Counted from the first letter of the stretch, positions 16,198 to 40,948 are shown. The stretch: DNA of 64,000 nucleotides from a virus (IMGVR_UViG_3300010368_000009:1-64000); one strand, 5' to 3'. Program-made: numbers and translations. Notes: generated from the sequence alone by a model not told the origin.

Positions 16198-16273
16198 GCC
16201 GTCATAGCTCAGTTGGCAGAGCGCCTGCCTTGTAAGCAGGATGTCCGGGGTTCGAATCCTCGTGGCGGCACCA
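16198..16273 (+). tRNA. tRNA-Thr(TGT)
   Basis: Canonical cloverleaf, loop CTTGTAA, ACCA end. Confidence 0.95.
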
Positions 16274-16295
16274 TTCCCCTCATGAAAGGTTTTTC

Positions 16296-16556
16296 ATGTC
16301 AGACCCGTATGTAGAATATCAAAACCTAAAAGCCCGCCACCAGAAAGAGTTGGTTGAGTGGATTCATTCGACGCCCGCAAATCTAGCTGCTTTTCAAGAA
16401 GATACGGGTTATGATACACCAGAAGAATATCTTGATGAATACGGATATAAGTTCTGCATCATAGCTCATATAGCACAAGATTTACGTCATCCTGATTATG
16501 AAACGTGGCGAGATGAATACATCCCGTATCATTTCTTGGAAGACCGATTCCATTAA
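16296..16556 (+). CDS. Hypothetical protein
   Basis: AAGG RBS, 86 aa. Confidence 0.6.
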   Translation: MSDPYVEYQNLKARHQKELVEWIHSTPANLAAFQEDTGYDTPEEYLDEYGYKFCIIAHIAQDLRHPDYETWRDEYIPYHFLEDRFH

Positions 16557-16568
16557 CCGATTGAGTAT

Positions 16569-16754
16569 ATGATGTTAAAACGACACAAAGACACAGCATT
16601 TACTATAACCTTCATGCCCTTAAGGTGGAAATGGGGTTGCACCGATGCCATGGGGTGTAAATCATTTACAATGGGTCCGTTTCGGTTTGGGTATTATAAT
16701 CCACATTCTGCGAACAAGTCATATAATTTCACAACCAAACTCTACGACAAATAG
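16569..16754 (+). CDS. Hypothetical protein
   Basis: 61 aa ORF ending in TAG right before a tRNA-like element. Confidence 0.45.
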   Translation: MMLKRHKDTAFTITFMPLRWKWGCTDAMGCKSFTMGPFRFGYYNPHSANKSYNFTTKLYDK

Positions 16755-16755
16755 C

Positions 16756-16838
16756 GGGCAGGACTCTGGTAGGGAAACCGCTGCGGCGTTAATGAACAAA
16801 TGCAAACCCCATGGGTTCAATTCCCATCCTGTCCACCA
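16756..16838 (+). ncRNA. tRNA-like RNA with alanine-type acceptor (G3:U70, A73, CCA), lacking normal D and anticodon arms
   Basis: GGGCAGG/CCTGTCC-ACCA acceptor; T arm ATGGG-TTCAATT-CCCAT. Confidence 0.7.
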
Positions 16839-16852
16839 TTAATGAGTATATT

Positions 16853-17164
16853 ATGCTTGATGATCATCCGTTAATTCCGCAATTAAAAGAATATATGAAG
16901 CAATCAGTATCTGCTGATGGTGAACAACGTATTGGTGAATATTTCTGGTCTTCTGAATTGCCATCATATGATTTCACAAAAGAAGTTCTTGAACCGGGTT
17001 GTAGTGAAACCTTACCCGAAGGTGCAACAGGATTGAGAGTCGATGATGACTTCTGGATCGTTGGCATTATTCCCTACGAGTATAAAGATGTTCCAACCCG
17101 TGAACTGGTCGATGTGTTGTATCCATGGATACCAGAAGGAAAAGTAATTATACTTTCCGAATGA
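16853..17164 (+). CDS. Hypothetical protein
   Basis: ORF start trimmed out of the RNA gene. Confidence 0.6.
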   Translation: MLDDHPLIPQLKEYMKQSVSADGEQRIGEYFWSSELPSYDFTKEVLEPGCSETLPEGATGLRVDDDFWIVGIIPYEYKDVPTRELVDVLYPWIPEGKVIILSE

Positions 17165-17520
17165 TGGTTATAAGTAAGTTCATGAAAGAACTTACTCTTG
17201 CAGTTCGACACGATAATAATCTAGCCTTTGCGGAATTTGATGAAGATGGTAACATCTTACATTGGAAGGTGAAGACTCAAGCAAAGTTCATAGAAGAATC
17301 ACTTGGTCGAGAATTACCGTACACATGGGTATTGGTCGTTGGCAAAGAAGAAAAAGATCAAACCATCATCTGTGAAGTTTTAGAGACTTTTCCAATGGAC
17401 GAGTATGGTGATACAATTAATATCCTAAACGAGCCGATGTTCCAGTTACAAGCAAGCGAGTTACTAATATCATATATGAAAGATCATAGATGTGATGTAT
17501 CAGCTGAAACTATTAATTGA
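17161..17520 (+). CDS. Hypothetical protein
   Basis: ATGA overlap. Confidence 0.6.
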   Translation: MMVISKFMKELTLAVRHDNNLAFAEFDEDGNILHWKVKTQAKFIEESLGRELPYTWVLVVGKEEKDQTIICEVLETFPMDEYGDTINILNEPMFQLQASELLISYMKDHRCDVSAETIN

Positions 17521-17556
17521 CATTGATGGTTCACCCTGTATATTGATGTCTTCAAC

Positions 17557-17633
17557 GGCTGGTTAGCTTAATTGGTCAAAGTCGGAGCCTCTAAAACTCC
17601 CAGATATGGGTTCAAGTCCCATACCAGCCACCA
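17557..17633 (+). tRNA. Amber suppressor tRNA (anticodon CTA)
   Basis: GGCTGGT/ACCAGCC acceptor with ACCA; anticodon loop CTCTAAA (CTA at 17591-17593); T arm ATGGG-TTCAAGT-CCCAT; own TTGACA promoter. Confidence 0.85.
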
Positions 17634-17647
17634 AATTTTACAGAGCG

Positions 17648-17947
17648 ATGAATATGTCAAAAGATAAAACAACTGACCGGGTTTACACTCTTGATGAGTG
17701 GAGAAACAGTGTCGCCAGAATGTGGTGGGCAATTATTCCATCTTCGAAGTCTGATCTTGAAAAAATCAAGGATTGGGTTCTGAAGAACAGCAAAACCCTT
17801 GGTGATAACGTTTTCTTCCTCACAGATGATAAAACGGTTAAGATCAGCTGTCCTGATGGATTTCGTAAACTTTGCGGAATCGTTAAAGATGAACTGAACA
17901 TCCAATTCAAGGTCAAGCCTTATGGCGACAACGATCTTGAACTTTAA
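17648..17947 (+). CDS. Hypothetical protein
   Basis: ORF downstream of the tRNA. Confidence 0.6.
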   Translation: MNMSKDKTTDRVYTLDEWRNSVARMWWAIIPSSKSDLEKIKDWVLKNSKTLGDNVFFLTDDKTVKISCPDGFRKLCGIVKDELNIQFKVKPYGDNDLEL

Positions 17948-18203
17948 AGTGTTTTTGGATTCATACGCAGCTTCATATAATTGGGCAGCAATTGTTTTCC
18001 CAATGAGTGATTTCGAATTAGCTATAGCATTCAAAGAGTTAGCAGAACCATACCTAACTGACCAAGTTGTTTTATTGGGATGTGAAGTTCGCTGCATTGA
18101 TAATCTATTAATGCTTAAAATTGTTGAGGCAGCGAAAGCCAAAGGAATTGATATCAAGTCGATTCAATTAAAATATGCAGGATGTGATATACTGATGGGT
18201 TGA
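17922..18203 (+). CDS. Hypothetical protein
   Basis: Overlapping ORF. Confidence 0.5.
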   Translation: MATTILNFKVFLDSYAASYNWAAIVFPMSDFELAIAFKELAEPYLTDQVVLLGCEVRCIDNLLMLKIVEAAKAKGIDIKSIQLKYAGCDILMG

Positions 18204-18256
18204 CAACCCTAATACATCTTGATAACTATATAATATGACAACCACAGGAGATAGTC

Positions 18257-18682
18257 ATGACGTAGATTACTAAACAAGAACTACTTAAGAATAACACGAA
18301 CGAAGTGTCGGATAATAATCTTTATCTTTACGCTATCATTCGCAAAGACCTTGAAATGCCTTCGGGCAAGCTTGCGTCCCAAGCTGGTCATGCTTTCACT
18401 GACAGTCTTTGTCAGGCTTTAGATCAATCACCTGAACGGTTTCATAATTACCGTACCGGCCATGGTGGATCGAAAGTCGTTCTGAAAGCCAAGGGCGAAA
18501 CCCAACTCATCAATACCTATAATCGAATTCGCGAATCTGGCATTCCTTGTGCCTTGATCGTGGATCAGAAACATATCATGCCGCCGCACTTTGATGGTAA
18601 TCCCATCATCACGGCGCTTGGTATTGGTCCGTGTCGCCGCGAAGAGATTTACCCGATCATTAAAAAGTTTGGGTGCGTGTGA
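18257..18682 (+). CDS. pth2: Peptidyl-tRNA hydrolase Pth2-family protein with in-frame TAG at codon 3 (alternative GTG start at 18305)
   Basis: IIRKDLEMPSGKLASQAGHAF, KVVLKA, TALGIGP; AGGAG RBS before ATG-ACG-TAG, in frame with the ORF. Confidence 0.82.
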
Positions 18683-19275
18683 TGGCCAAGGATTATACGA
18701 AAATCAAAAATATTGATGAACTTGGATGCATGATGATGAAATGCAAACAGTTCAAGGATCAAGATGTGTTGGAACACGGATATTCAATCTATGATTACTT
18801 CCGTGATCTTCAGGATCATATACTTTATGATTCACCTACAACATATGAATGGAAATTACCTAATTGGATTTATAATGAAAAGTTATGGGATCAACTATTA
18901 GATCACAAGACGATTCGTACATATCAAATCTATCACGATTGTGGTAAACCATTCTGTAGAACCATCGATACGGAAGGTCGTCACCATTTCCCAGATCATG
19001 CTAATATATCAGCTGATCTATGGATGCATCTAATGGGTGATCAACAGATTTCCGATTTGATGCGAATGGATATGGATATTCATTTGATGCGTGCAGATGG
19101 GATTGAAGAATTCGCATCTCGTAAAGAGGCAGCAACGTTGCTTATAACGGGTTTATGTGAACTTCACAGCAATGCGCGTATGTTTGGTGGAATCTCATCC
19201 ACGGGCTTCAAAATCAAGTGGAAGGCCATGAACAAGTATGGTGGTCGCATTGCCGAAATACTTTGTCAAAAATGA
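18682..19275 (+). CDS. HD-domain phosphohydrolase-like protein
   Basis: VLEHG...YHDCGKPF...HFPDHA...MDIH; TGATG-coupled to pth2. Confidence 0.75.
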   Translation: MAKDYTKIKNIDELGCMMMKCKQFKDQDVLEHGYSIYDYFRDLQDHILYDSPTTYEWKLPNWIYNEKLWDQLLDHKTIRTYQIYHDCGKPFCRTIDTEGRHHFPDHANISADLWMHLMGDQQISDLMRMDMDIHLMRADGIEEFASRKEAATLLITGLCELHSNARMFGGISSTGFKIKWKAMNKYGGRIAEILCQK

Positions 19276-19279
19276 TTGT

Positions 19280-19305
19280 TCGGGGAGTCTTAACCGGCTC
19301 CCCGA
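19280..19305 (+). terminator. Hairpin after the pth2-HD operon
   Basis: TCGGGGAG...CTCCCCGA inverted repeat. Confidence 0.5.
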
Positions 19306-19358
19306 TATCATATATAGACGTTGACATTGATACATAAGTACTGTAACATGTTAATAAT

Positions 19359-19433
19359 GCCGATTTCGTCCAATGGCTAAGATGTCTGTTTCGTACTCAG
19401 GAGATAACAGTTCGATTCTGTTAATCGGCTCCA
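19359..19433 (+). tRNA. tRNA-Thr(CGT)
   Basis: Loop TTCGTAC, acceptor GCCGATT/AATCGGC, TCCA end, promoter at 19321. Confidence 0.85.
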
Positions 19434-19447
19434 TTAATAGGTGATGC

Positions 19448-19948
19448 ATGTTCAAGATTAAACAAAAGCCCAAGTTCAAAGAGCTTCCTGATGAAGTTAT
19501 TGAAGTACATCTTAGTCGTGCTTATGGCAGTGATGAGTTCACTCTTGAAGAGATTGTTAAACAACTGCTTGATAAGATGCATGAGTTTAATAAACGTCAC
19601 GAAAATATTGTGATACCGGACCCGATTGATGTTTATAAATTAAAATTTGAAGCAGATAATGATGATTATGAATATGATTGTCATGCTTCCCCACATCTAG
19701 AAGTTCGATGCATGGTTCGCCCGTCTGATCGTTTATGTGAAGCCCATCTACTCGCATACGAAAAGAAACTCAAAGTGTTTGAGAAATGGGAAGAAGACAA
19801 CAAGGACAAGATCGCTGCTGAATTGGTGCGTCGAGTTGAACAGGAAAAGCTTGATAAGATTCGCGCCAAGGATCAGACACAGGTGAAATTGAACGAAGAA
19901 CGTGAGCGTTTGCAAAAACGATTGGCAGAAATAGAAAAGAAATTATAA
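19448..19948 (+). CDS. Hypothetical protein with coiled-coil C-terminus
   Basis: AGGTG RBS; charged helix. Confidence 0.65.
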   Translation: MFKIKQKPKFKELPDEVIEVHLSRAYGSDEFTLEEIVKQLLDKMHEFNKRHENIVIPDPIDVYKLKFEADNDDYEYDCHASPHLEVRCMVRPSDRLCEAHLLAYEKKLKVFEKWEEDNKDKIAAELVRRVEQEKLDKIRAKDQTQVKLNEERERLQKRLAEIEKKL

Positions 19949-19949
19949 A

Positions 19950-20345
19950 ATGTATTTTGCAAAAATATTATTGTCAGCCAACAGTACCGATTTAGCGTGC
20001 TTGTGTGATGCTTACTATCCAAATCAGGATGGTCAATGGTTTGACTGTGGTGATACCGATATGGCAACGCGCCTATATAATGCTTGTCTGGTGAACCGTT
20101 CGGCTGATCCTGATTCTAGTATGATCAAGCTAACGGAAAATGGTGAAGATTTCTTAGTGGAAGTCGCTCGACGTGCCTTGGCACAAGGTATGTTCTTATC
20201 CCCTGAATTGAGCCGCGACGAACTTGATTACATCAAAACTATGAAAGATGCACAGGCGGAAGGAATTGTATTAGCCGAAGCAGCAGCAAAGAAGAAAGAA
20301 GACCGTGCTGCTGGCCAACGTGCATTAGCCAAGGCAGGTCAATAG
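19950..20345 (+). CDS. Hypothetical protein
   Basis: 131 aa ORF, TAG stop abutting the next ATG in frame. Confidence 0.65.
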   Translation: MYFAKILLSANSTDLACLCDAYYPNQDGQWFDCGDTDMATRLYNACLVNRSADPDSSMIKLTENGEDFLVEVARRALAQGMFLSPELSRDELDYIKTMKDAQAEGIVLAEAAAKKKEDRAAGQRALAKAGQ

Positions 20346-20597
20346 ATGGTGGATTTCATACTCAGTATAGTAAGTGGCAGCATGGCCGTGTTGTTCTTTT
20401 ATATGAGTGTGGAATCCCTTTTCATGCCTAATCGTGCCAAACGAAGATATGAAAAGTATTTGAACCAACGAATTAATGTTTGTTATGTTGACAGAAATAA
20501 TAAAATAGTGTTTCTAAGAACAGTTGCCGAGAAGATGGAACACGACCGAATTCAAAACCGAGACTGGTGGCGAGCCATTATTAGACATTCGCTATAA
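20346..20597 (+). CDS. Hypothetical membrane protein
   Basis: N-terminal TM helix. Confidence 0.55.
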   Translation: MVDFILSIVSGSMAVLFFYMSVESLFMPNRAKRRYEKYLNQRINVCYVDRNNKIVFLRTVAEKMEHDRIQNRDWWRAIIRHSL

Positions 20598-20611
20598 GTA
20601 TTAACAAGATT

Positions 20612-20687
20612 GCCGTCTTAGCTCAGTTGGCAGAGCGTTACATTGGTATTGTAAAGGTCACTGGTTCGACTCCAGTAGACGGCACCA
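20612..20687 (+). tRNA. tRNA-Thr(GGT)
   Basis: Canonical cloverleaf, loop TTGGTAT, ACCA end. Confidence 0.93.
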
Positions 20688-37517: not shown

Positions 37518-37904
37518 ATGAATGTTCAATCTTTACAATACCGATTTCTTAAAGTCGATGAATTCAAAAAGCGCGATTTACCATTGCCTCGATTTTATGA
37601 TGGTGTTCATGATCATCATAATAATGAAACCTTTGGTGAATTTATTTGTATTACCCCTGACTTTGATTGGGATCATAAGGTTTCAAAAGAGATATATGGT
37701 GTCATCACTTATGGAATATATAATAATGAAGAAACCATTATTAAGATGATAGAAACCAATGAGATATATCGTGGTCTTGGTATTGCTGCTGAGATGGTCA
37801 GTCAGCTTTCATTGAGACATAAGACTAAAATTGTAATGAGTCACACGACTGAAGATGGTGCCAAGTTGGTAGATTTTCTGAATGCAAATGGTTTTGAATT
37901 ATAA
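37518..37904 (+). CDS. GNAT-family acetyltransferase
   Basis: YRGLGIA acetyl-CoA motif, TEDG. Confidence 0.7.
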   Translation: MNVQSLQYRFLKVDEFKKRDLPLPRFYDGVHDHHNNETFGEFICITPDFDWDHKVSKEIYGVITYGIYNNEETIIKMIETNEIYRGLGIAAEMVSQLSLRHKTKIVMSHTTEDGAKLVDFLNANGFEL

Positions 37905-38556: not shown

Positions 38557-40188
38557 TTACCGAACGAATTCAGCCATTACCGATGGTGCGTTAGCATCAA
38601 ATCCAACGATGTCGAGCATGCCCGGATCGTCTGGGTTAGCAATAGTGAACTCCGTTGCAGTCATACCAACAACAACCAGCTTTGCGTTGATGCCGGTCTT
38701 CTTGCGATAGTCACGAAGTGCTTCATGTGGATGAATGCCACCAGCCCATGTTTCATTATCCGTGTAGATAACAAAGACATCAACTTCAATACCATTATCC
38801 ATTGCATAAAGCATTGGTGCTGCGCAATCGGTTCCACCGAATGGAAGACCACTGACCTTGCTAATCACGCCACTAAGCGTTGACGCCCGGCCAAAGTTTA
38901 GTGGCGTGACACCACGATCACCTACCGAAGACGATCCACGACCCCAACCACCACGTGAAGGACTCGTGAAAGAAACAGTATGAGTAACCGGTTCTGTCTT
39001 CATTGTGATGAGAGCCATTGCAGCTGAAGCATCACGTGCAGTCAGATTGGTATTCATAATGTTTTCCCAACCCATTGAGCCGGAAACATCAAGTGCAAGC
39101 AGATGACGCTTTCCAGTAGGAACAACATTCTTGAAGGCCAACATAAATGCTTCTTCAAGAGCGGACGTAATGTTTCCATTAACATTCCATGTGTTATTAC
39201 CACGGAAACCCTTACCACTTTCGTAAGTCTTCAGAGCAAGAAGCACCGCCATTGGGTGGATACGTGACTTATGGATCAAATTTTGGTCCGTAAGACGACG
39301 CACTGCTTCTTGTTCAAACTCGGACATTGGCTTGAATAGATTGATCTTATCCGAAGACATATTTCCGAGATTACGGATCATAGCGGTCATTGGCATCTTA
39401 TCAAAAAGAGCTTCCCAAACCTTTGGTTCGTTCAACATTTCCGTTGGAAGTGCTTCACGAGGCAGGTTAGCGTTCTTGATCAGATCAATCGTTTCCTTCA
39501 CTGTTGCTGTCTTCACCATTTCGTATGCAGTGATGATAGCAGGCAGGTTAGCGGCATCTACTGGACGCCCGGACAGCCAACGGAAGAGCGAGTTACGCTC
39601 TGTGTCGTCTGTCTTAGGGTGTGCCAGACGAAGCAGGTCAAGGTGTGTCCAACCTTCGCGTTGACGATACTTCGTTGTCTGATAGGCAAGATCATCAACC
39701 GTTTGGTTGATATACCAATTACCGACAGCACGACGAAGCGCTGGACCCCAACCACGGAACTGTTCTATGAATTCCGCGAACTGGAACAGGTGTGTACCGA
39801 TACGAGCAACACGAGGCAGAGCCGCAAGAGCGTATGCAGCAACCTTTGGGTTAGCTGGATCACAAGCCATTGCGAGTGCAAACAGAGCTGCATCGTTACG
39901 ATATGCACGACCGTTAACAGAAACGTCAACAATAAGATCGACTGCACGGAAACCATTTTCAGCGATTGCCGTCTTCATGGAGTCTGCATTGCTAAGCGTG
40001 AGTTCACGAGCGGATGCATAATATGATGGTGCATCCGATCCAAGAATCAGGAATCGTTCAAGACGACCGAAGCTATCCAGCGTGAACGAATATCCGCCCG
40101 CGTTGTTTTCCGCCTGCTTAGGGGAAGCTGCTTCTGTTTGTGGGGTTTGTCGGTTACGAGTTCCGACATTCTTATATGCAGTTGCCAT
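38557..40188 (-). CDS. rsr: Ro60/TROVE-domain RNA-binding protein (Rsr)
   Basis: NNAGGY, RFLILGS, KYRQREGWTHLDLLRLAHP, MPMTAMIRNLG, vWA DVSGSM, GGTDC, VIYTDNET, DPGMLDIVGFD; GAAGGA RBS. Confidence 0.95.
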   Translation of the reverse strand: MATAYKNVGTRNRQTPQTEAASPKQAENNAGGYSFTLDSFGRLERFLILGSDAPSYYASARELTLSNADSMKTAIAENGFRAVDLIVDVSVNGRAYRNDAALFALAMACDPANPKVAAYALAALPRVARIGTHLFQFAEFIEQFRGWGPALRRAVGNWYINQTVDDLAYQTTKYRQREGWTHLDLLRLAHPKTDDTERNSLFRWLSGRPVDAANLPAIITAYEMVKTATVKETIDLIKNANLPREALPTEMLNEPKVWEALFDKMPMTAMIRNLGNMSSDKINLFKPMSEFEQEAVRRLTDQNLIHKSRIHPMAVLLALKTYESGKGFRGNNTWNVNGNITSALEEAFMLAFKNVVPTGKRHLLALDVSGSMGWENIMNTNLTARDASAAMALITMKTEPVTHTVSFTSPSRGGWGRGSSSVGDRGVTPLNFGRASTLSGVISKVSGLPFGGTDCAAPMLYAMDNGIEVDVFVIYTDNETWAGGIHPHEALRDYRKKTGINAKLVVVGMTATEFTIANPDDPGMLDIVGFDANAPSVMAEFVR

Positions 40189-40353: not shown

Positions 40354-40499
40354 ATGGCTTTGTGAGCAAATGTATAGAAAATAGGGTTTAAGCGCTCTAC
40401 CGCTGAGCTACCAAGCCGCGAACGACCTGAGTTGGATTCGAACCAACGACCTCTCCATTACAAGTGGATAACCTATTTTCATCCGGCTCACAAAGCCAT
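40354..40499 (-). ncRNA. Y RNA-like unit 2, YrlA-type with permuted tRNA domain
   Basis: 14-bp terminal stem, GCCGGAUG, UUAUC, T arm, UUCG-capped acceptor, D arm. Confidence 0.85.
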
Positions 40500-40504
40500 T
40501 TTAG

Positions 40505-40651
40505 TAAGACGAGTAAATGAAATGACAAAGGGATAATATACAGTTGCGTCTACCAATTCCGCCACTCCCCGTTAGATTGGTCGGGGAGACAGGACTTGAA
40601 CCTGTAATACTCACTGTTCCTTAGATAACCCTAAATCTCCGACACGTCTTA
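40505..40651 (-). ncRNA. Y RNA-like unit 3, YrlA-type with Leu-like permuted tRNA domain
   Basis: GUGUCGGAG/AUUUACUC stem, UUAUC, T arm ACAGG-UUCAAGU-CCUGU, acceptor CUCCCCG/CGGGGAG, D arm GGCGGAAUUGGUAGACGC. Confidence 0.82.
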
Positions 40652-40682: not shown

Positions 40683-40751
40683 GTTACGAGCAAATTGTTG
40701 AAAATGGGGGTTCATCAACAAAAGATAACCCACTCTCATCCGGCACGTAAC
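40683..40751 (-). ncRNA. Y RNA-like unit 4 (short)
   Basis: GUUACGUGCCGGAUG...GGGUUAUC...AUUUGCUCGUAAC. Confidence 0.78.
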
Positions 40752-40760
40752 CGCTTTAGT

Positions 40761-40828
40761 ACTGCGAGCAAATTGTTTGAAATGGGGGTTCATCGTTGCA
40801 AGATAACCCACTTCATCCGGCCCGCAGT
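40761..40828 (-). ncRNA. Y RNA-like unit 5 (short, near-duplicate of unit 4)
   Basis: ACUGCGGGCCGGAUG...GGGUUAUC...AUUUGCUCGCAGU. Confidence 0.78.
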
Positions 40829-40844
40829 CTTATTGCGATGTGGA

Positions 40845-40875
40845 TATACTTAAGGGTAATAATTCGGGGTGTCAA
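40845..40875 (-). promoter_or_regulatory. Sigma70-type promoter of the Y RNA-Ro60 operon
   Basis: TTGACA (40875-40870), 17 nt, TAAGTA on the minus strand. Confidence 0.6.
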
Positions 40876-40948
40876 ACGGTTTTATGATTTTTCTGCATTT
40901 TTCTCTTTTTTGTTGCACATGGAGTGAAACGTGCTATAAGTATTATCT

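What the first reader, a model, noticed from the sequence alone, without database searches (positions are those of the whole stretch)
40354..40499. Y RNA unit 2 is a complete circularly permuted tRNA that keeps a Thr(UGU) anticodon arm
Seen (minus strand): after UUA come UCCA-CUUGUAA-UGGA, GAGGUC, T arm GUUGG-UUCGAAU-CCAAC, acceptor stem UCAGGUCG-UUCG-CGGCUUGG and D arm UAGCUCAGCGGUAGAGC. The 7-nt loop CUUGUAA is identical to the anticodon loop of this phage's tRNA-Thr(TGT) at 16198. Established: in YrlA RNAs the Ro-binding stem normally takes the place of the anticodon arm. Inference: this RNA cannot be charged because the acceptor is capped, yet it displays a real anticodon loop, as a decoy for anticodon nucleases or modification enzymes would.
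Basis: partly seen in the sequence, partly recalled or inferred. Interest (0 to 1): 0.75.

Follow-up and report, generated by a model that had tools for sequence, protein, structure and literature searches.

The report
Phage Y RNA with anticodon-arm mimic
Next to a giant phage's Ro60 gene lies a small RNA that is a whole tRNA turned inside out, with its amino-acid end sealed and a threonine-type anticodon loop still on show; the same overlooked anticodon-like hairpin, with a fast-changing "anticodon", is present in most related Y RNAs of phages and bacteria.

Summary
The unit at 40354-40499 (minus strand) folds as a Ro60-binding stem that carries a T arm, a UUCG-capped acceptor stem, a D arm and a 4-bp hairpin. 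The hairpin's 7-nt loop, CUUGUAA, is identical to the anticodon loop of the phage's own tRNA-Thr(UGU).

The RNA is a YrlA-class Y RNA and is not exceptional. The hairpin is the stem-loop that Chen et al. 2014 called "V" (variable arm).

What looks new is how that hairpin reads. I collected 122 non-identical YrlA-type units beside Ro60 genes (48 viral, 74 bacterial). Across them the hairpin sits in the exact tRNA register, followed by a 5-nt RGGUY variable loop. Its three loop-proximal pairs covary. The loop reads Y32-U33-NNN-R37-A38, and U36 goes with A37 while G36 goes with G37. The middle triplet changes about five times faster than the rest of the RNA.

Near-identical orthologues toggle between CUCAUAA and CUUAAGA. 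The closest relative of this phage carries UAC instead of UGU. A primer in Chen et al. suggests that M. smegmatis YrlA carries CUUCUAA.

A decoy or bait role for enzymes that read anticodon loops is plausible but untested. The stem is short and its 3D position is unknown. This scan has met other Y-RNA/tRNA chimeras before, but none of the summaries I saw describes this feature.

The parts
40354..40499 (-). Whole Y RNA unit (fourth of five in the array): Ro60-binding stem plus a permuted tRNA-like module
   Evidence: Sequence; MFE fold -53.7 kcal/mol, z -4.55; coordinates
40486..40497 (-). Outer closing stem, 5' strand GGCUUUGUGAGC; pairs with 40356-40367
40480..40485 (-). Bulged C + GGAUG. With the preceding G this gives GCCGGA, a variant of the Ro60-binding motif GNCGAAN0-1G; GGAU pairs with AUUU at 40368-40371
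   Evidence: motif definition from Chen 2014; the same motif occurs in all five units
40472..40480 (-). Inner Y stem, 5' strand GAAAAUAGG; pairs with CCUAUUUUC at 40377-40385
   Evidence: Pair probabilities 0.74-0.99
40467..40471 (-). UUAUC motif (the conserved YUAY of YrlA); overlaps the 5' strand of the hairpin
40454..40468 (-). Anticodon-arm mimic UCCA-CUUGUAA-UGGA. Loop at 40458-40464; 'anticodon' UGU at 40460-40462. Equivalent to tRNA positions 28-42; A27 and G43 do not pair
   Evidence: loop identical to that of tRNA-Thr(UGU); family statistics
40448..40453 (-). G43 + 5-nt variable loop AGGUC (positions 44-48, with G46 and C48)
   Evidence: family consensus R44 G45 G46 U47 Y48
40431..40447 (-). 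T arm GUUGG-UUCGAAU-CCAAC
40411..40430 (-). Acceptor-like stem of 8 bp closed by a UUCG loop; no discriminator or CCA
40394..40410 (-). U8-A9 + D arm GCUC-AGCGGUA-GAGC (A14, G15, G18 and G19 present)
   Evidence: YrlA model alignment
40386..40393 (-). G26 + linker CUUAAAC leading back into the Y stem; family consensus R-C-(N)-UAAA-CC
38557..40188 (-). Ro60/Rsr orthologue, 166 nt downstream of the unit on the same strand
   Evidence: Pfam TROVE 1.8e-41 and vWA_Ro60 2.8e-62
40516..40640 (-). Neighbouring Y RNA unit with a Leu-type (class II) permuted tRNA module and no anticodon-like hairpin
40683..40829 (-). Two short hairpin-type Y RNA units (40761-40829 and 40683-40752)
   Evidence: sub-threshold matches to the nematode Y-like sbRNA model RF01656
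40253..40336 (-). Fifth unit, a hairpin-type Y RNA, just upstream of the Ro60 gene
16198..16273 (+). Comparator: the phage's genuine tRNA-Thr(UGU), with the same 7-nt anticodon loop CUUGUAA

Best explanation
The unit is a YrlA-class Y RNA transcribed with the phage's Ro60 gene. Its paired ends form the Ro60-binding stem.

Its body is an entire class-I tRNA, opened between positions 26 and 27 and sealed at the acceptor end. All four arms are present, and the nucleotides for the L-shape contacts (U8-A14, G15-C48, G18/G19 with the T loop, G26-A44, C13-G22-G46) can all be read off the sequence.

The small hairpin before the T arm is a selected mimic of an anticodon stem-loop, here of the Thr UGU type. 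It is the element the literature calls 'V'.

Proposed mechanism (inferred, not shown): the RNA cannot enter translation, because it has no free CCA end. While tethered to Ro60 it offers a tRNA body plus an exposed anticodon loop to proteins that read anticodon loops. Most likely it acts as a competitive substrate or inhibitor (decoy or bait) for tRNA anticodon nucleases. Failing that, it acts as an adaptor that brings a tRNA-handling enzyme to Ro60. The middle triplet sets which tRNA species is imitated and is exchanged quickly in evolution.

Confidence by part: about 0.85 that the hairpin is a conserved anticodon-loop look-alike; about 0.35 for the decoy or adaptor function.
For: Anatomy and fold. 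Loop identity with the phage tRNA-Thr(UGU). Overlapping tRNA and YrlA model matches.

Homologous units sit upstream of Ro60 in Mycobacterium phages, a Caulobacter phage and others, with 76-80% identity over about 105 nt.

Results from 122 units anchored only on the T stem and not selected for a hairpin:
- The register with a 5-nt variable loop gives pairs 31-39, 30-40 and 29-41 in 82, 81 and 86 units. Column shuffles give 43.6, 51.4 and 58.9. Each pair shows 4-6 pair types.
- U33 occurs in 83 units, R37 in 97 and A38 in 86. Shifted registers score far lower.

In 19 units of the window's own subtype, all four hairpin pairs show compensatory changes (covariation 0.66 against 0.22 in shuffles).

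The loop logo (n = 82) is C32 57, U33 69, R37 71, A38 64, with 34 different triplets. U36 is followed by A37 in 25 of 27 loops and G36 by G37 in 17 of 21.

In close pairs the triplet diverges at 0.32 per site. The loop flanks diverge at 0.11, the stem at 0.06 and other sites at 0.06.

Verrucomicrobial orthologues, 86% mean column identity over the aligned stretch, toggle between CUCAUAA and CUUAAGA. The nearest relative of this phage (Ro60 75% identical) has CUUACAA at the orthologous unit.

The loop shows no complementarity to the rest of the RNA, so it is probably exposed.

Precedent: YrlA was proposed as a competitive inhibitor of an anticodon nuclease (PMC7790460). Anticodon loops of phage tRNAs are a documented battleground, including in phage Rizal (PMC10264068), which carries Ro60 and such a unit.
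Against: The two outer pairs (28-42 and 27-43) pair no more often than chance, so the stem is usually 3 bp (4 here) instead of the 5 bp of a tRNA. Such a hairpin is marginal thermodynamically. With loosely cut flanks the canonical hairpin is in the MFE fold of only 6 of 56 units. With exact ends a hairpin appears at that spot in all five homologues folded, but in the exact 7-nt-loop register only in CcrColossus unit 3.

The Y stem begins two nucleotides after the D stem, so it also claims the anticodon-stem position. In the only solved YrlA structure, the Y stem stacks under the D stem. The hairpin may therefore stick out sideways like a variable arm.

S. Typhimurium YrlA, which lacks the hairpin, was not cut by the SOS-induced anticodon nuclease.

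The fast triplet evolution is also what neutral drift in an exposed loop would give.

No RNA repair gene (RtcB) was found in the 101-kb fragment held. No transcript, modification, binding or cleavage data exist for this RNA.
Confidence: 0.45

Rival explanations
1. The hairpin is only a structural side arm (a true 'V' arm). The Y stem stacks on the D stem as in S. Typhimurium YrlA. The hairpin braces the five-way junction or touches Ro60. Its U-turn-type loop is kept for stability, and the triplet drifts because it is solvent-exposed and unread.
For: The crystal structure places the Y stem in the anticodon-stem position. The conserved GGUUA on the 5' side and UAAACC after the D arm could extend the Y stem up to position 27. 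The stem is only 3-4 bp. The triplet is saturated with change.
Against: Variable arms of class II tRNAs have 3-5-nt loops and are followed by 1-2 nt (established tRNA knowledge). Here the loop is 7 nt and a full RGGUY variable loop follows. The dependence of position 37 on position 36 and the depletion of A34 (7 of 82) are anticodon-loop traits that a mere brace does not need. The same 7-mers recur on different scaffolds.
Confidence: 0.25
2. The hairpin is an evolutionary relic. YrlA arose from a dimeric tRNA transcript (the Sim and Wolin model quoted). The hairpin is the leftover anticodon arm of the upstream tRNA and has no present function.
For: The order anticodon arm, variable loop, T arm, 3' acceptor strand, (NCCA), spacer, 5' acceptor strand, D arm is exactly that of a tRNA dimer. 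NCCA follows the 7-nt 3' strand in 20 of 122 units (about 2 expected). CcrColossus unit 1 still has ACCA plus a spacer hairpin.
Against: A relic without function should decay. Instead U33, R37, A38, the 7-nt loop length and the stem pairing are kept across phages and at least eight bacterial phyla, while the triplet is saturated.
Confidence: 0.1
3. The unit is a disguised pre-tRNA. RNase P and 3' trimming open the acceptor cap, CCA is added, and the resulting two-piece molecule, held together by the Y stem, is charged and used, or at least handled by the synthetase.
For: M. smegmatis YrlA is cut by RNase P and receives CCA in vivo, and its authors raised aminoacylation as a possibility. A primer in that paper suggests it has the loop CUUCUAA. 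The un-permuted window module is called tRNA-Thr(tgt) by ARAGORN. G35 and U36, known ThrRS identity elements (my own knowledge), are present.
Against: The window unit has no discriminator or CCA and an 8-bp stem closed by UUCG. The second acceptor pair is G-U, not the C2-G71 of tRNA-Thr. The anticodon stem is too short. The ARAGORN call does not discriminate. The phage already encodes three genuine Thr tRNAs.
Confidence: 0.07
4. The pattern is chance, or a mis-scored pair of adjacent tRNA genes.
For: Tandem tRNAs can imitate the T-then-D order (a caveat raised by Chen 2014). One such artefact appeared in my scan and was removed (L012 at about 5619).
Against: There is no D arm upstream and no T arm downstream. 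The ends form a stem of 12 bp and more carrying the Ro60 motif. ARAGORN finds no tRNA here. Shuffle controls exclude chance.
Confidence: 0.02

Closest known systems
YrlA (Y RNA-like A; Rfam RF02553; Chen et al. 2014, PMC4201824; S. Typhimurium structure PDB 6CU1 in Wang et al. 2018, bioRxiv 10.1101/312249)
   Same: It is encoded beside Ro60/Rsr. The 5' and 3' ends pair into a stem with the Ro60 motif and YUAY/UUAUC. The order is T arm, closed acceptor-like stem, D arm. The nucleotides for tRNA tertiary contacts are conserved. Many members have a fourth stem-loop ('V') upstream of T, which is the hairpin discussed here.
   Different: The Rfam consensus and the crystallised S. Typhimurium RNA lack the hairpin, and the structure paper states that YrlA lacks the anticodon loop. 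Here, and in most units sampled, the hairpin has the sequence signature and register of an anticodon stem-loop followed by a normal 5-nt variable loop. The window unit scores 28.4 bits against a cut-off of 69.
Mycobacterium smegmatis YrlA (Chen et al. 2014)
   Same: It belongs to the same actinobacterial and phage lineage as the window unit's best DNA matches (Sparky, prophiGD43A-5). A published primer reads CACTTCTAATGGAATGGTCGC, which fits a CCA-CUUCUAA-UGG hairpin followed by a variable loop and the T stem.
   Different: The M. smegmatis RNA has a 7-bp acceptor stem that RNase P opens in vivo, with CCA addition. The window unit has an 8-bp stem with a UUCG cap and no CCA.
Circularly permuted tRNA genes of Cyanidioschyzon merolae and some archaea (Soma et al. 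2007, as cited)
   Same: The 3' half of the tRNA precedes the 5' half. The acceptor end is initially closed and the ends pair.
   Different: Those are precursors matured into working tRNAs through a circular intermediate made by the splicing endonuclease and a ligase. No such pathway is known in bacteria. Here the paired ends are a Ro60-binding module and not a splice site.
Other tRNA mimics: the tRNA-like domain of tmRNA, the TYMV tRNA-like structure, mascRNA
   Same: They share an L-shaped tRNA imitation used to engage tRNA-binding proteins. mascRNA is reported to bind GlnRS through its anticodon-like loop.
   Different: tmRNA and TYMV TLS have free CCA ends and are charged. None of them is tethered to Ro60.

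Membership tests
YrlA-class bacterial/phage Y RNA | Encoded within a few kb of a Ro60/Rsr orthologue | tested here: met
   The unit ends 166 nt upstream of the Ro60 start, on the same strand. Pfam TROVE and vWA_Ro60 match the protein.
YrlA-class bacterial/phage Y RNA | The 5' and 3' ends pair into a stem carrying the Ro60-binding motif (GNCGAAN0-1G, bulged helix) | tested here: met
   A 12-bp outer stem, a bulged C and GGAUG/AUUU are present. The motif is the variant GCCGGA, shared by all five units of the array and by many loci. Binding itself was not tested.
YrlA-class bacterial/phage Y RNA | T arm, then a closed acceptor-like stem-loop, then a D arm, with conserved tRNA tertiary-contact nucleotides | tested here: met
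   MFE fold. The YrlA model aligns T, AS and D. U8, A14, G15, G18, G19, G46, C48 and UUCGA are present.
YrlA-class bacterial/phage Y RNA | Reaches the Rfam RF02553 gathering score | tested here: not met
   28.4 bits against 69, over model positions 23-87 only. The curated model represents hairpin-less enterobacterial-type YrlA.
YrlA-class bacterial/phage Y RNA | Bound by Ro60; modified by TruB and DusA | not testable with these tools
   Needs immunoprecipitation and modification mapping.
Genuine (decoding) tRNA | Cloverleaf in standard order with a free acceptor end (discriminator + CCA, or able to receive it) | tested here: not met
   The acceptor is closed by UUCG. ARAGORN finds no gene. The Rfam tRNA model gives 28.3 bits, below the cut-off of 29, and only by using the Y strand as a false acceptor and D arm.
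Genuine (decoding) tRNA | 7-nt anticodon loop with U33 and a purine at 37, followed by a 4-5-nt variable loop and the T arm | tested here: met
   CUUGUAA, then G + AGGUC, then the T arm. The register holds across the family.
Genuine (decoding) tRNA | 5-bp anticodon stem continuous with the D stem through position 26 | tested here: not met
   The stem is 4 bp with an A27-G43 mismatch. A 7-nt linker and the Y stem lie between G26 and position 27. Family-wide, only 3 pairs are supported.
Permuted pre-tRNA (C. merolae type) | Matured to a linear tRNA via a bulge-helix-bulge splice site and a circular intermediate | not tested
   No bulge-helix-bulge motif was looked for. The paired ends carry the Ro60 motif instead. 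The pathway is unknown in bacteria.

The most novel reading that the evidence does not exclude
The 'V' hairpin of YrlA RNAs is a programmable anticodon-loop display. Ro60 particles of phages and bacteria carry one or several non-chargeable tRNA dummies. The dummy's 'anticodon' is swapped among discrete states to match the tRNA species attacked (or handled) by a particular anticodon-loop enzyme. This would make the Ro60-Y RNA system a specificity-switching decoy or sensor in the tRNA-cleavage arms race. In the sub-lineage that keeps NCCA and is opened by RNase P, the dummy could even be a two-piece chargeable tRNA tethered to Ro60.
Probability: 0.2. Interest if true: 0.85.

Novelty: new variant of a known kind. 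Interest (0 to 1): 0.62.

Why it matters
What the tRNA-like half of bacterial Y RNAs binds has been open since 2014. The published view is that YrlA has no anticodon loop.

This work changes that view. Most YrlA-type RNAs carry a conserved anticodon-loop look-alike with a rapidly switching triplet. This includes the phage unit here and, judging from a primer, the experimentally studied M. smegmatis RNA.

That narrows the search for partners to proteins that read anticodon loops: anticodon nucleases, loop-modifying enzymes and synthetase anticodon-binding domains. It also gives simple loop-swap experiments.

The result supports the tRNA-dimer origin of YrlA, because the upstream tRNA's anticodon arm, and in some units its NCCA, are still there.

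There is also a practical point. Several public phage records annotate pieces of these Y RNAs as tRNA genes.

Tried and rejected
(1) Un-permuting the modules and running ARAGORN. It called 109 of 122, and the window unit as tRNA-Thr(tgt). It also called 76-90 of 122 after the anticodon arm was shuffled, so the test does not discriminate.

(2) MAFFT alignment of all 122 anchored 39-mers (A4). It shifted the 5' strand by one column in many rows, so pair counts on it would be wrong. I counted pairs on ungapped anchored segments in a script instead. I used the count of structure pairs only on a gap-free subset, which was preselected for having the hairpin, so its percentage paired is circular.

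(3) Folding with loosely cut flanks. This gave the canonical hairpin in 6 of 56 units. I kept it as a caveat and refolded five units with exact ends.

(4) Looking for a pseudoknot between the loop and the flanks. No excess complementarity was found.

(5) Asking whether the mimic's anticodon matches a genuine tRNA of the same phage. Only 10 loci had tRNAs within reach, with 2 matches, so the test has no power.

(6) RtcB in the held genome fragment: none found, but the record is about 30% complete.

(7) Pfam on nine neighbouring ORFs: no RNA-repair or nuclease genes.

(8) The sigma-70 scan did not score the conserved TTGACA-containing motif upstream of the array.

(9) Burroughs and Aravind 2016, Sim and Wolin 2018 and Sim et al. 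2020 are not held. I cannot exclude that one of them already comments on the loop.

(10) The search for related loci on genome contigs with the first alignment failed for lack of a conserved stretch. It worked after the Caulobacter phage protein was dropped.

Full report
**What is there.** On the minus strand, between about 40880 and the Ro60 start codon at 40188, lie five stem-closed Y-RNA-like units. The downstream ORF (38557-40188) is a Ro60/Rsr orthologue, with Pfam TROVE 1.8e-41 and vWA_Ro60 2.8e-62.

Folded alone, the unit gives exactly the described five-way junction: closing stem with a bulged C, inner stem, a 4-bp hairpin with a 7-nt loop, T arm, UUCG-capped 8-bp acceptor stem and D arm. 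The energy is -53.7 kcal/mol, z = -4.55, and none of 200 shuffles folds as well. Pair probabilities are 0.58-0.68 for the hairpin, 0.97-0.98 for the T arm, about 0.9 for the acceptor stem and 0.35 for the D arm.

The loop CUUGUAA equals the anticodon loop of the phage's tRNA-Thr(UGU) at 16198. The stems and arms differ, so the unit is not a recent copy of that gene. ARAGORN calls no tRNA here.

Two half-overlapping sub-threshold Rfam matches together span a permuted tRNA:
- The tRNA model aligns anticodon arm, variable loop, T arm and 3' acceptor strand (28.3 bits, cut-off 29).
- The YrlA model aligns T arm, capped stem and D arm (28.4 bits, cut-off 69).

**What the literature calls it.** Chen et al. 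2014 defined YrlA RNAs by a Ro60-binding stem plus T, AS (closed acceptor) and D stem-loops. [quoted passage not shown] The conserved YUAY begins this "V loop".

The structure paper on S. Typhimurium YrlA, which has no such hairpin, states that "YrlA lacks the anticodon loop". It places the Y stem in the anticodon-stem position. It also quotes the Sim and Wolin model, in which YrlA arose from a dimeric tRNA transcript and the first tRNA's anticodon arm was absorbed into the Ro60-binding stem.

It does not set this unit apart from other YrlA RNAs. Searching the held library for YrlA together with anticodon gave seven papers, none describing anticodon-like loops. Three relevant reviews and analyses are not held.

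**Homologues.** The unit has 76-80% DNA identity over about 105 nt with unannotated or mis-annotated stretches just upstream of Ro60 genes. These are in Mycobacterium phages Sparky and Farewell, M. abscessus prophages prophiGD43A-5 and prophiT37-1, and Caulobacter phages CcrColossus and CcrPW.

Reading them shows the same architecture and a hairpin at the same place with different loops:

| Phage unit | Loop | Public annotation |
|---|---|---|
| prophiGD43A-5, first | CUUGUAA | tRNA-Thr(tgt) |
| Sparky | AUUGCAA | none |
| prophiGD43A-5, next unit | CUUUCCA | none |
| CcrColossus | AUCUGGA | tRNA-Gln |
| CcrColossus | CUGUUAA | none |

Other units in the same arrays are Leu- or Ser-type and have no such hairpin.

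To enlarge the sample I collected further Ro60 loci: annotated phage records, 80 IMG/VR loci and 80 bacterial loci from many phyla.

**Family-wide test.** A script located YrlA-type units by T arm, closed acceptor stem, D arm and an upstream GNTTA motif. Tandem-tRNA artefacts were filtered out. This gave 122 non-identical units, 48 viral and 74 bacterial.

A hairpin of at least 3 bp with a 7-nt loop, U at loop position 2 and a purine at position 6, lying 3-8 nt before the T stem, is present as follows:

| Set | Observed | Shuffle mean | Shuffle maximum (100 shuffles) |
|---|---|---|---|
| Viral | 32 of 48 | 2.8 | 8 |
| Bacterial | 33 of 74 | 5.5 | 12 |

A less circular test anchors all 122 units on the T stem alone and assumes the tRNA register (5-nt variable loop). 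Results:

| Pair | Units paired (of 122) | Column-shuffle expectation |
|---|---|---|
| 31-39 | 82 | 43.6 ± 4.9 |
| 30-40 | 81 | 51.4 ± 4.9 |
| 29-41 | 86 | 58.9 ± 4.2 |

Each of these pairs shows four to six pair types. U33 is present in 83 units, R37 in 97 and A38 in 86. The variable loop reads R-G-G-U-Y, with G46 in 105 of 122. Every shifted register is much worse.

The outer pairs 28-42 and 27-43 are not above chance. The stem is therefore typically 3 bp, and 4 bp in the window.

On a gap-free alignment of 19 units of the window's subtype, all four hairpin pairs show compensatory changes. The covariation score is 0.66 against 0.22 in shuffles, and slid controls give at most 0.14. That subset was chosen for having the hairpin, so only the covariation counts as evidence, not the percentage paired.

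**The loop behaves like an anticodon loop.** Among 82 units with the hairpin in register, the loop logo is C32 57, U33 69, R37 71 and A38 64. Positions 34-36 take 34 different triplets; the commonest are CAU 8, GUU 6, UCG 6 and UGU 5. A34 is rare, at 7 of 82.

Position 37 depends on position 36. U36 is followed by A37 in 25 of 27 loops and G36 by G37 in 17 of 21. From my own knowledge, these are the dinucleotides read by the t6A and m1G37 (TrmD) enzymes in real tRNAs.

The loop has no excess complementarity to the rest of the RNA, so an intramolecular pseudoknot is unlikely.

**Anticodon switching.** In pairs of units whose non-hairpin sites differ by at most 10% (mean 0.061), per-site divergence is as follows:

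| Site class | Divergence per site |
|---|---|
| Triplet 34-36 | 0.32 |
| Loop flanks 32, 33, 37, 38 | 0.11 |
| Stem | 0.06 |

Five verrucomicrobial orthologues, 86% mean column identity over 160 nt, carry either CUCAUAA or CUUAAGA. The two states do not follow the grouping given by the 5' flanks.

The closest relative of this phage (Ro60 75% identical, a 335-kb contig) has a four-unit array with the same promoter-like motif. In its orthologous unit the loop is CUUACAA, with a compensatory change in the loop-closing pair and ACCA retained after the acceptor 3' strand.

CUUGUAA itself recurs in the M. abscessus prophages and in two unrelated IMG/VR loci.

Bodies with different triplets are near-identical, so the triplets change on a constant scaffold. 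They were not captured with different tRNAs.

**Link to the experimentally studied RNA.** A primer that Chen et al. used to map M. smegmatis YrlA reads CACTTCTAATGGAATGGTCGC. This fits a CCA-CUUCUAA-UGG hairpin followed by a variable loop and the T stem. I inferred this from the primer alone and did not check it against the M. smegmatis genome. That RNA is cut by RNase P and receives CCA in vivo, and its authors raised aminoacylation as a possibility.

In my sample, NCCA follows a 7-nt acceptor 3' strand in 20 of 122 units, where about 2 would be expected. The window unit is not one of them. Its cap is a bare UUCG on an 8-bp stem.

**Caveats.**
- A 3-4-bp stem is weak. With loosely cut flanks the canonical hairpin is in the MFE fold of only 6 of 56 units.
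- With exact ends, all five homologues folded have a hairpin at that spot, but the exact 7-nt-loop register appears only in CcrColossus unit 3.
- The Y stem starts two nucleotides after the D stem, and GGUUA on the 5' side with UAAACC after the D arm could extend it. The Y stem and the hairpin therefore compete for the anticodon-stem position. In the only solved YrlA structure the Y stem wins. No tool here can decide the 3D arrangement.
- My units are related to one another, so shuffle statistics overstate independence.
- The fast triplet is compatible with neutrality.

**Mechanism.** Shown here: a conserved, covarying hairpin with the anticodon-loop signature on a non-chargeable tRNA body fused to a Ro60-binding stem.

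Inferred: it presents an anticodon loop to proteins that read such loops. The leading idea is a decoy or competitive substrate for anticodon nucleases. Three things fit it:
- Hughes et al. proposed that YrlA competitively inhibits an SOS-induced anticodon nuclease.
- There is evidence that phage tRNAs evolve anticodon-loop changes against host tRNases, shown for phage Rizal. Rizal itself carries Ro60 and a unit with loop AUUGCAA.
- This phage carries all three Thr isoacceptors.

Nothing in the neighbourhood or in the 101-kb fragment held adds direct support.

The rivals are a purely structural side arm, a relic of the tRNA-dimer origin, and a processed two-piece tRNA. They are weighed in the report sections.

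**Verdict.** The RNA is a YrlA-class Y RNA. The added value is that the so-called V arm of this class is an anticodon-arm mimic with a switching triplet, which I could not find described. Earlier notes of this scan describe related Y-RNA/tRNA chimeras and the neighbouring units of this array. None of the summaries shown mentions this feature.

Noticed in passing
L002:2493-2571 (prophiGD43A-5 gene 51); L003:2150-2217 (CcrColossus); L007:5040-5107 (Boopy gene 160); L010:1405-1477 (Blueeyedbeauty gene 99); L012:2143-2351 (Trina gene 136): Public phage records annotate pieces of Ro60-linked Y RNA units as tRNA-Thr(tgt), tRNA-Gln, tRNA-Ile, tRNA-His and a 'tRNA-OTHER' pseudogene. The callers take the Y RNA 5' strand as acceptor and D arm and the hairpin as the anticodon arm.
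   Followed up: partly
L014:2761-2800; L135:2346; L137:170; L020:2817 and others (list): NCCA directly follows a 7-nt acceptor 3' strand inside the closed acceptor loop in 20 of 122 YrlA-type units (about 2 expected). This fits a tRNA-dimer origin and possible RNase P opening. The window unit lacks it.
   Followed up: partly
L135:2280-2440, L137:104-264, L134:2154-2314, L169:2658-2818, L117:450-610 (alignment A5): Verrucomicrobial YrlA orthologues, 86% mean column identity, toggle between loops CUCAUAA and CUUAAGA (three coordinated changes). The pattern does not follow the grouping given by their 5' flanks.
   Followed up: partly
L003:2142-2314 (CcrColossus unit 1): The acceptor 3' strand CGCGUCC is followed by ACCA, a spacer hairpin (CCAGGC-UUCG-GCCUGA) and then the 5' strand GGGCGUG. 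This looks like a barely remodelled tRNA dimer.
   Followed up: no
window 40840-40880 (-) and L014:2425-2462: A conserved promoter-like motif, TTGACAcccc...ATTAT...TAAGTATAT, heads the Y RNA array in this phage and in its closest relative. The sigma-70 consensus scan does not score it.
   Followed up: no
window 37518-37904 (+): A 128-aa GNAT-family acetyltransferase ORF (weak Pfam match, 21.1 bits) sits between tRNA-Leu(CAA) and tRNA-Ser(GCU), just beyond the Ro60 gene.
   Followed up: no
window 16198-20687 (+): The phage encodes all three threonine isoacceptors (UGU, CGU, GGU) within 4.5 kb, in addition to the Thr-type Y RNA mimic.
   Followed up: no
L012:4142-4996 (Rhodococcus phage Trina): A band-7-like membrane protein gene lies directly downstream of Ro60. 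This recalls the Band-7 and tRNA-like RNA association attributed to Burroughs and Aravind.
   Followed up: no
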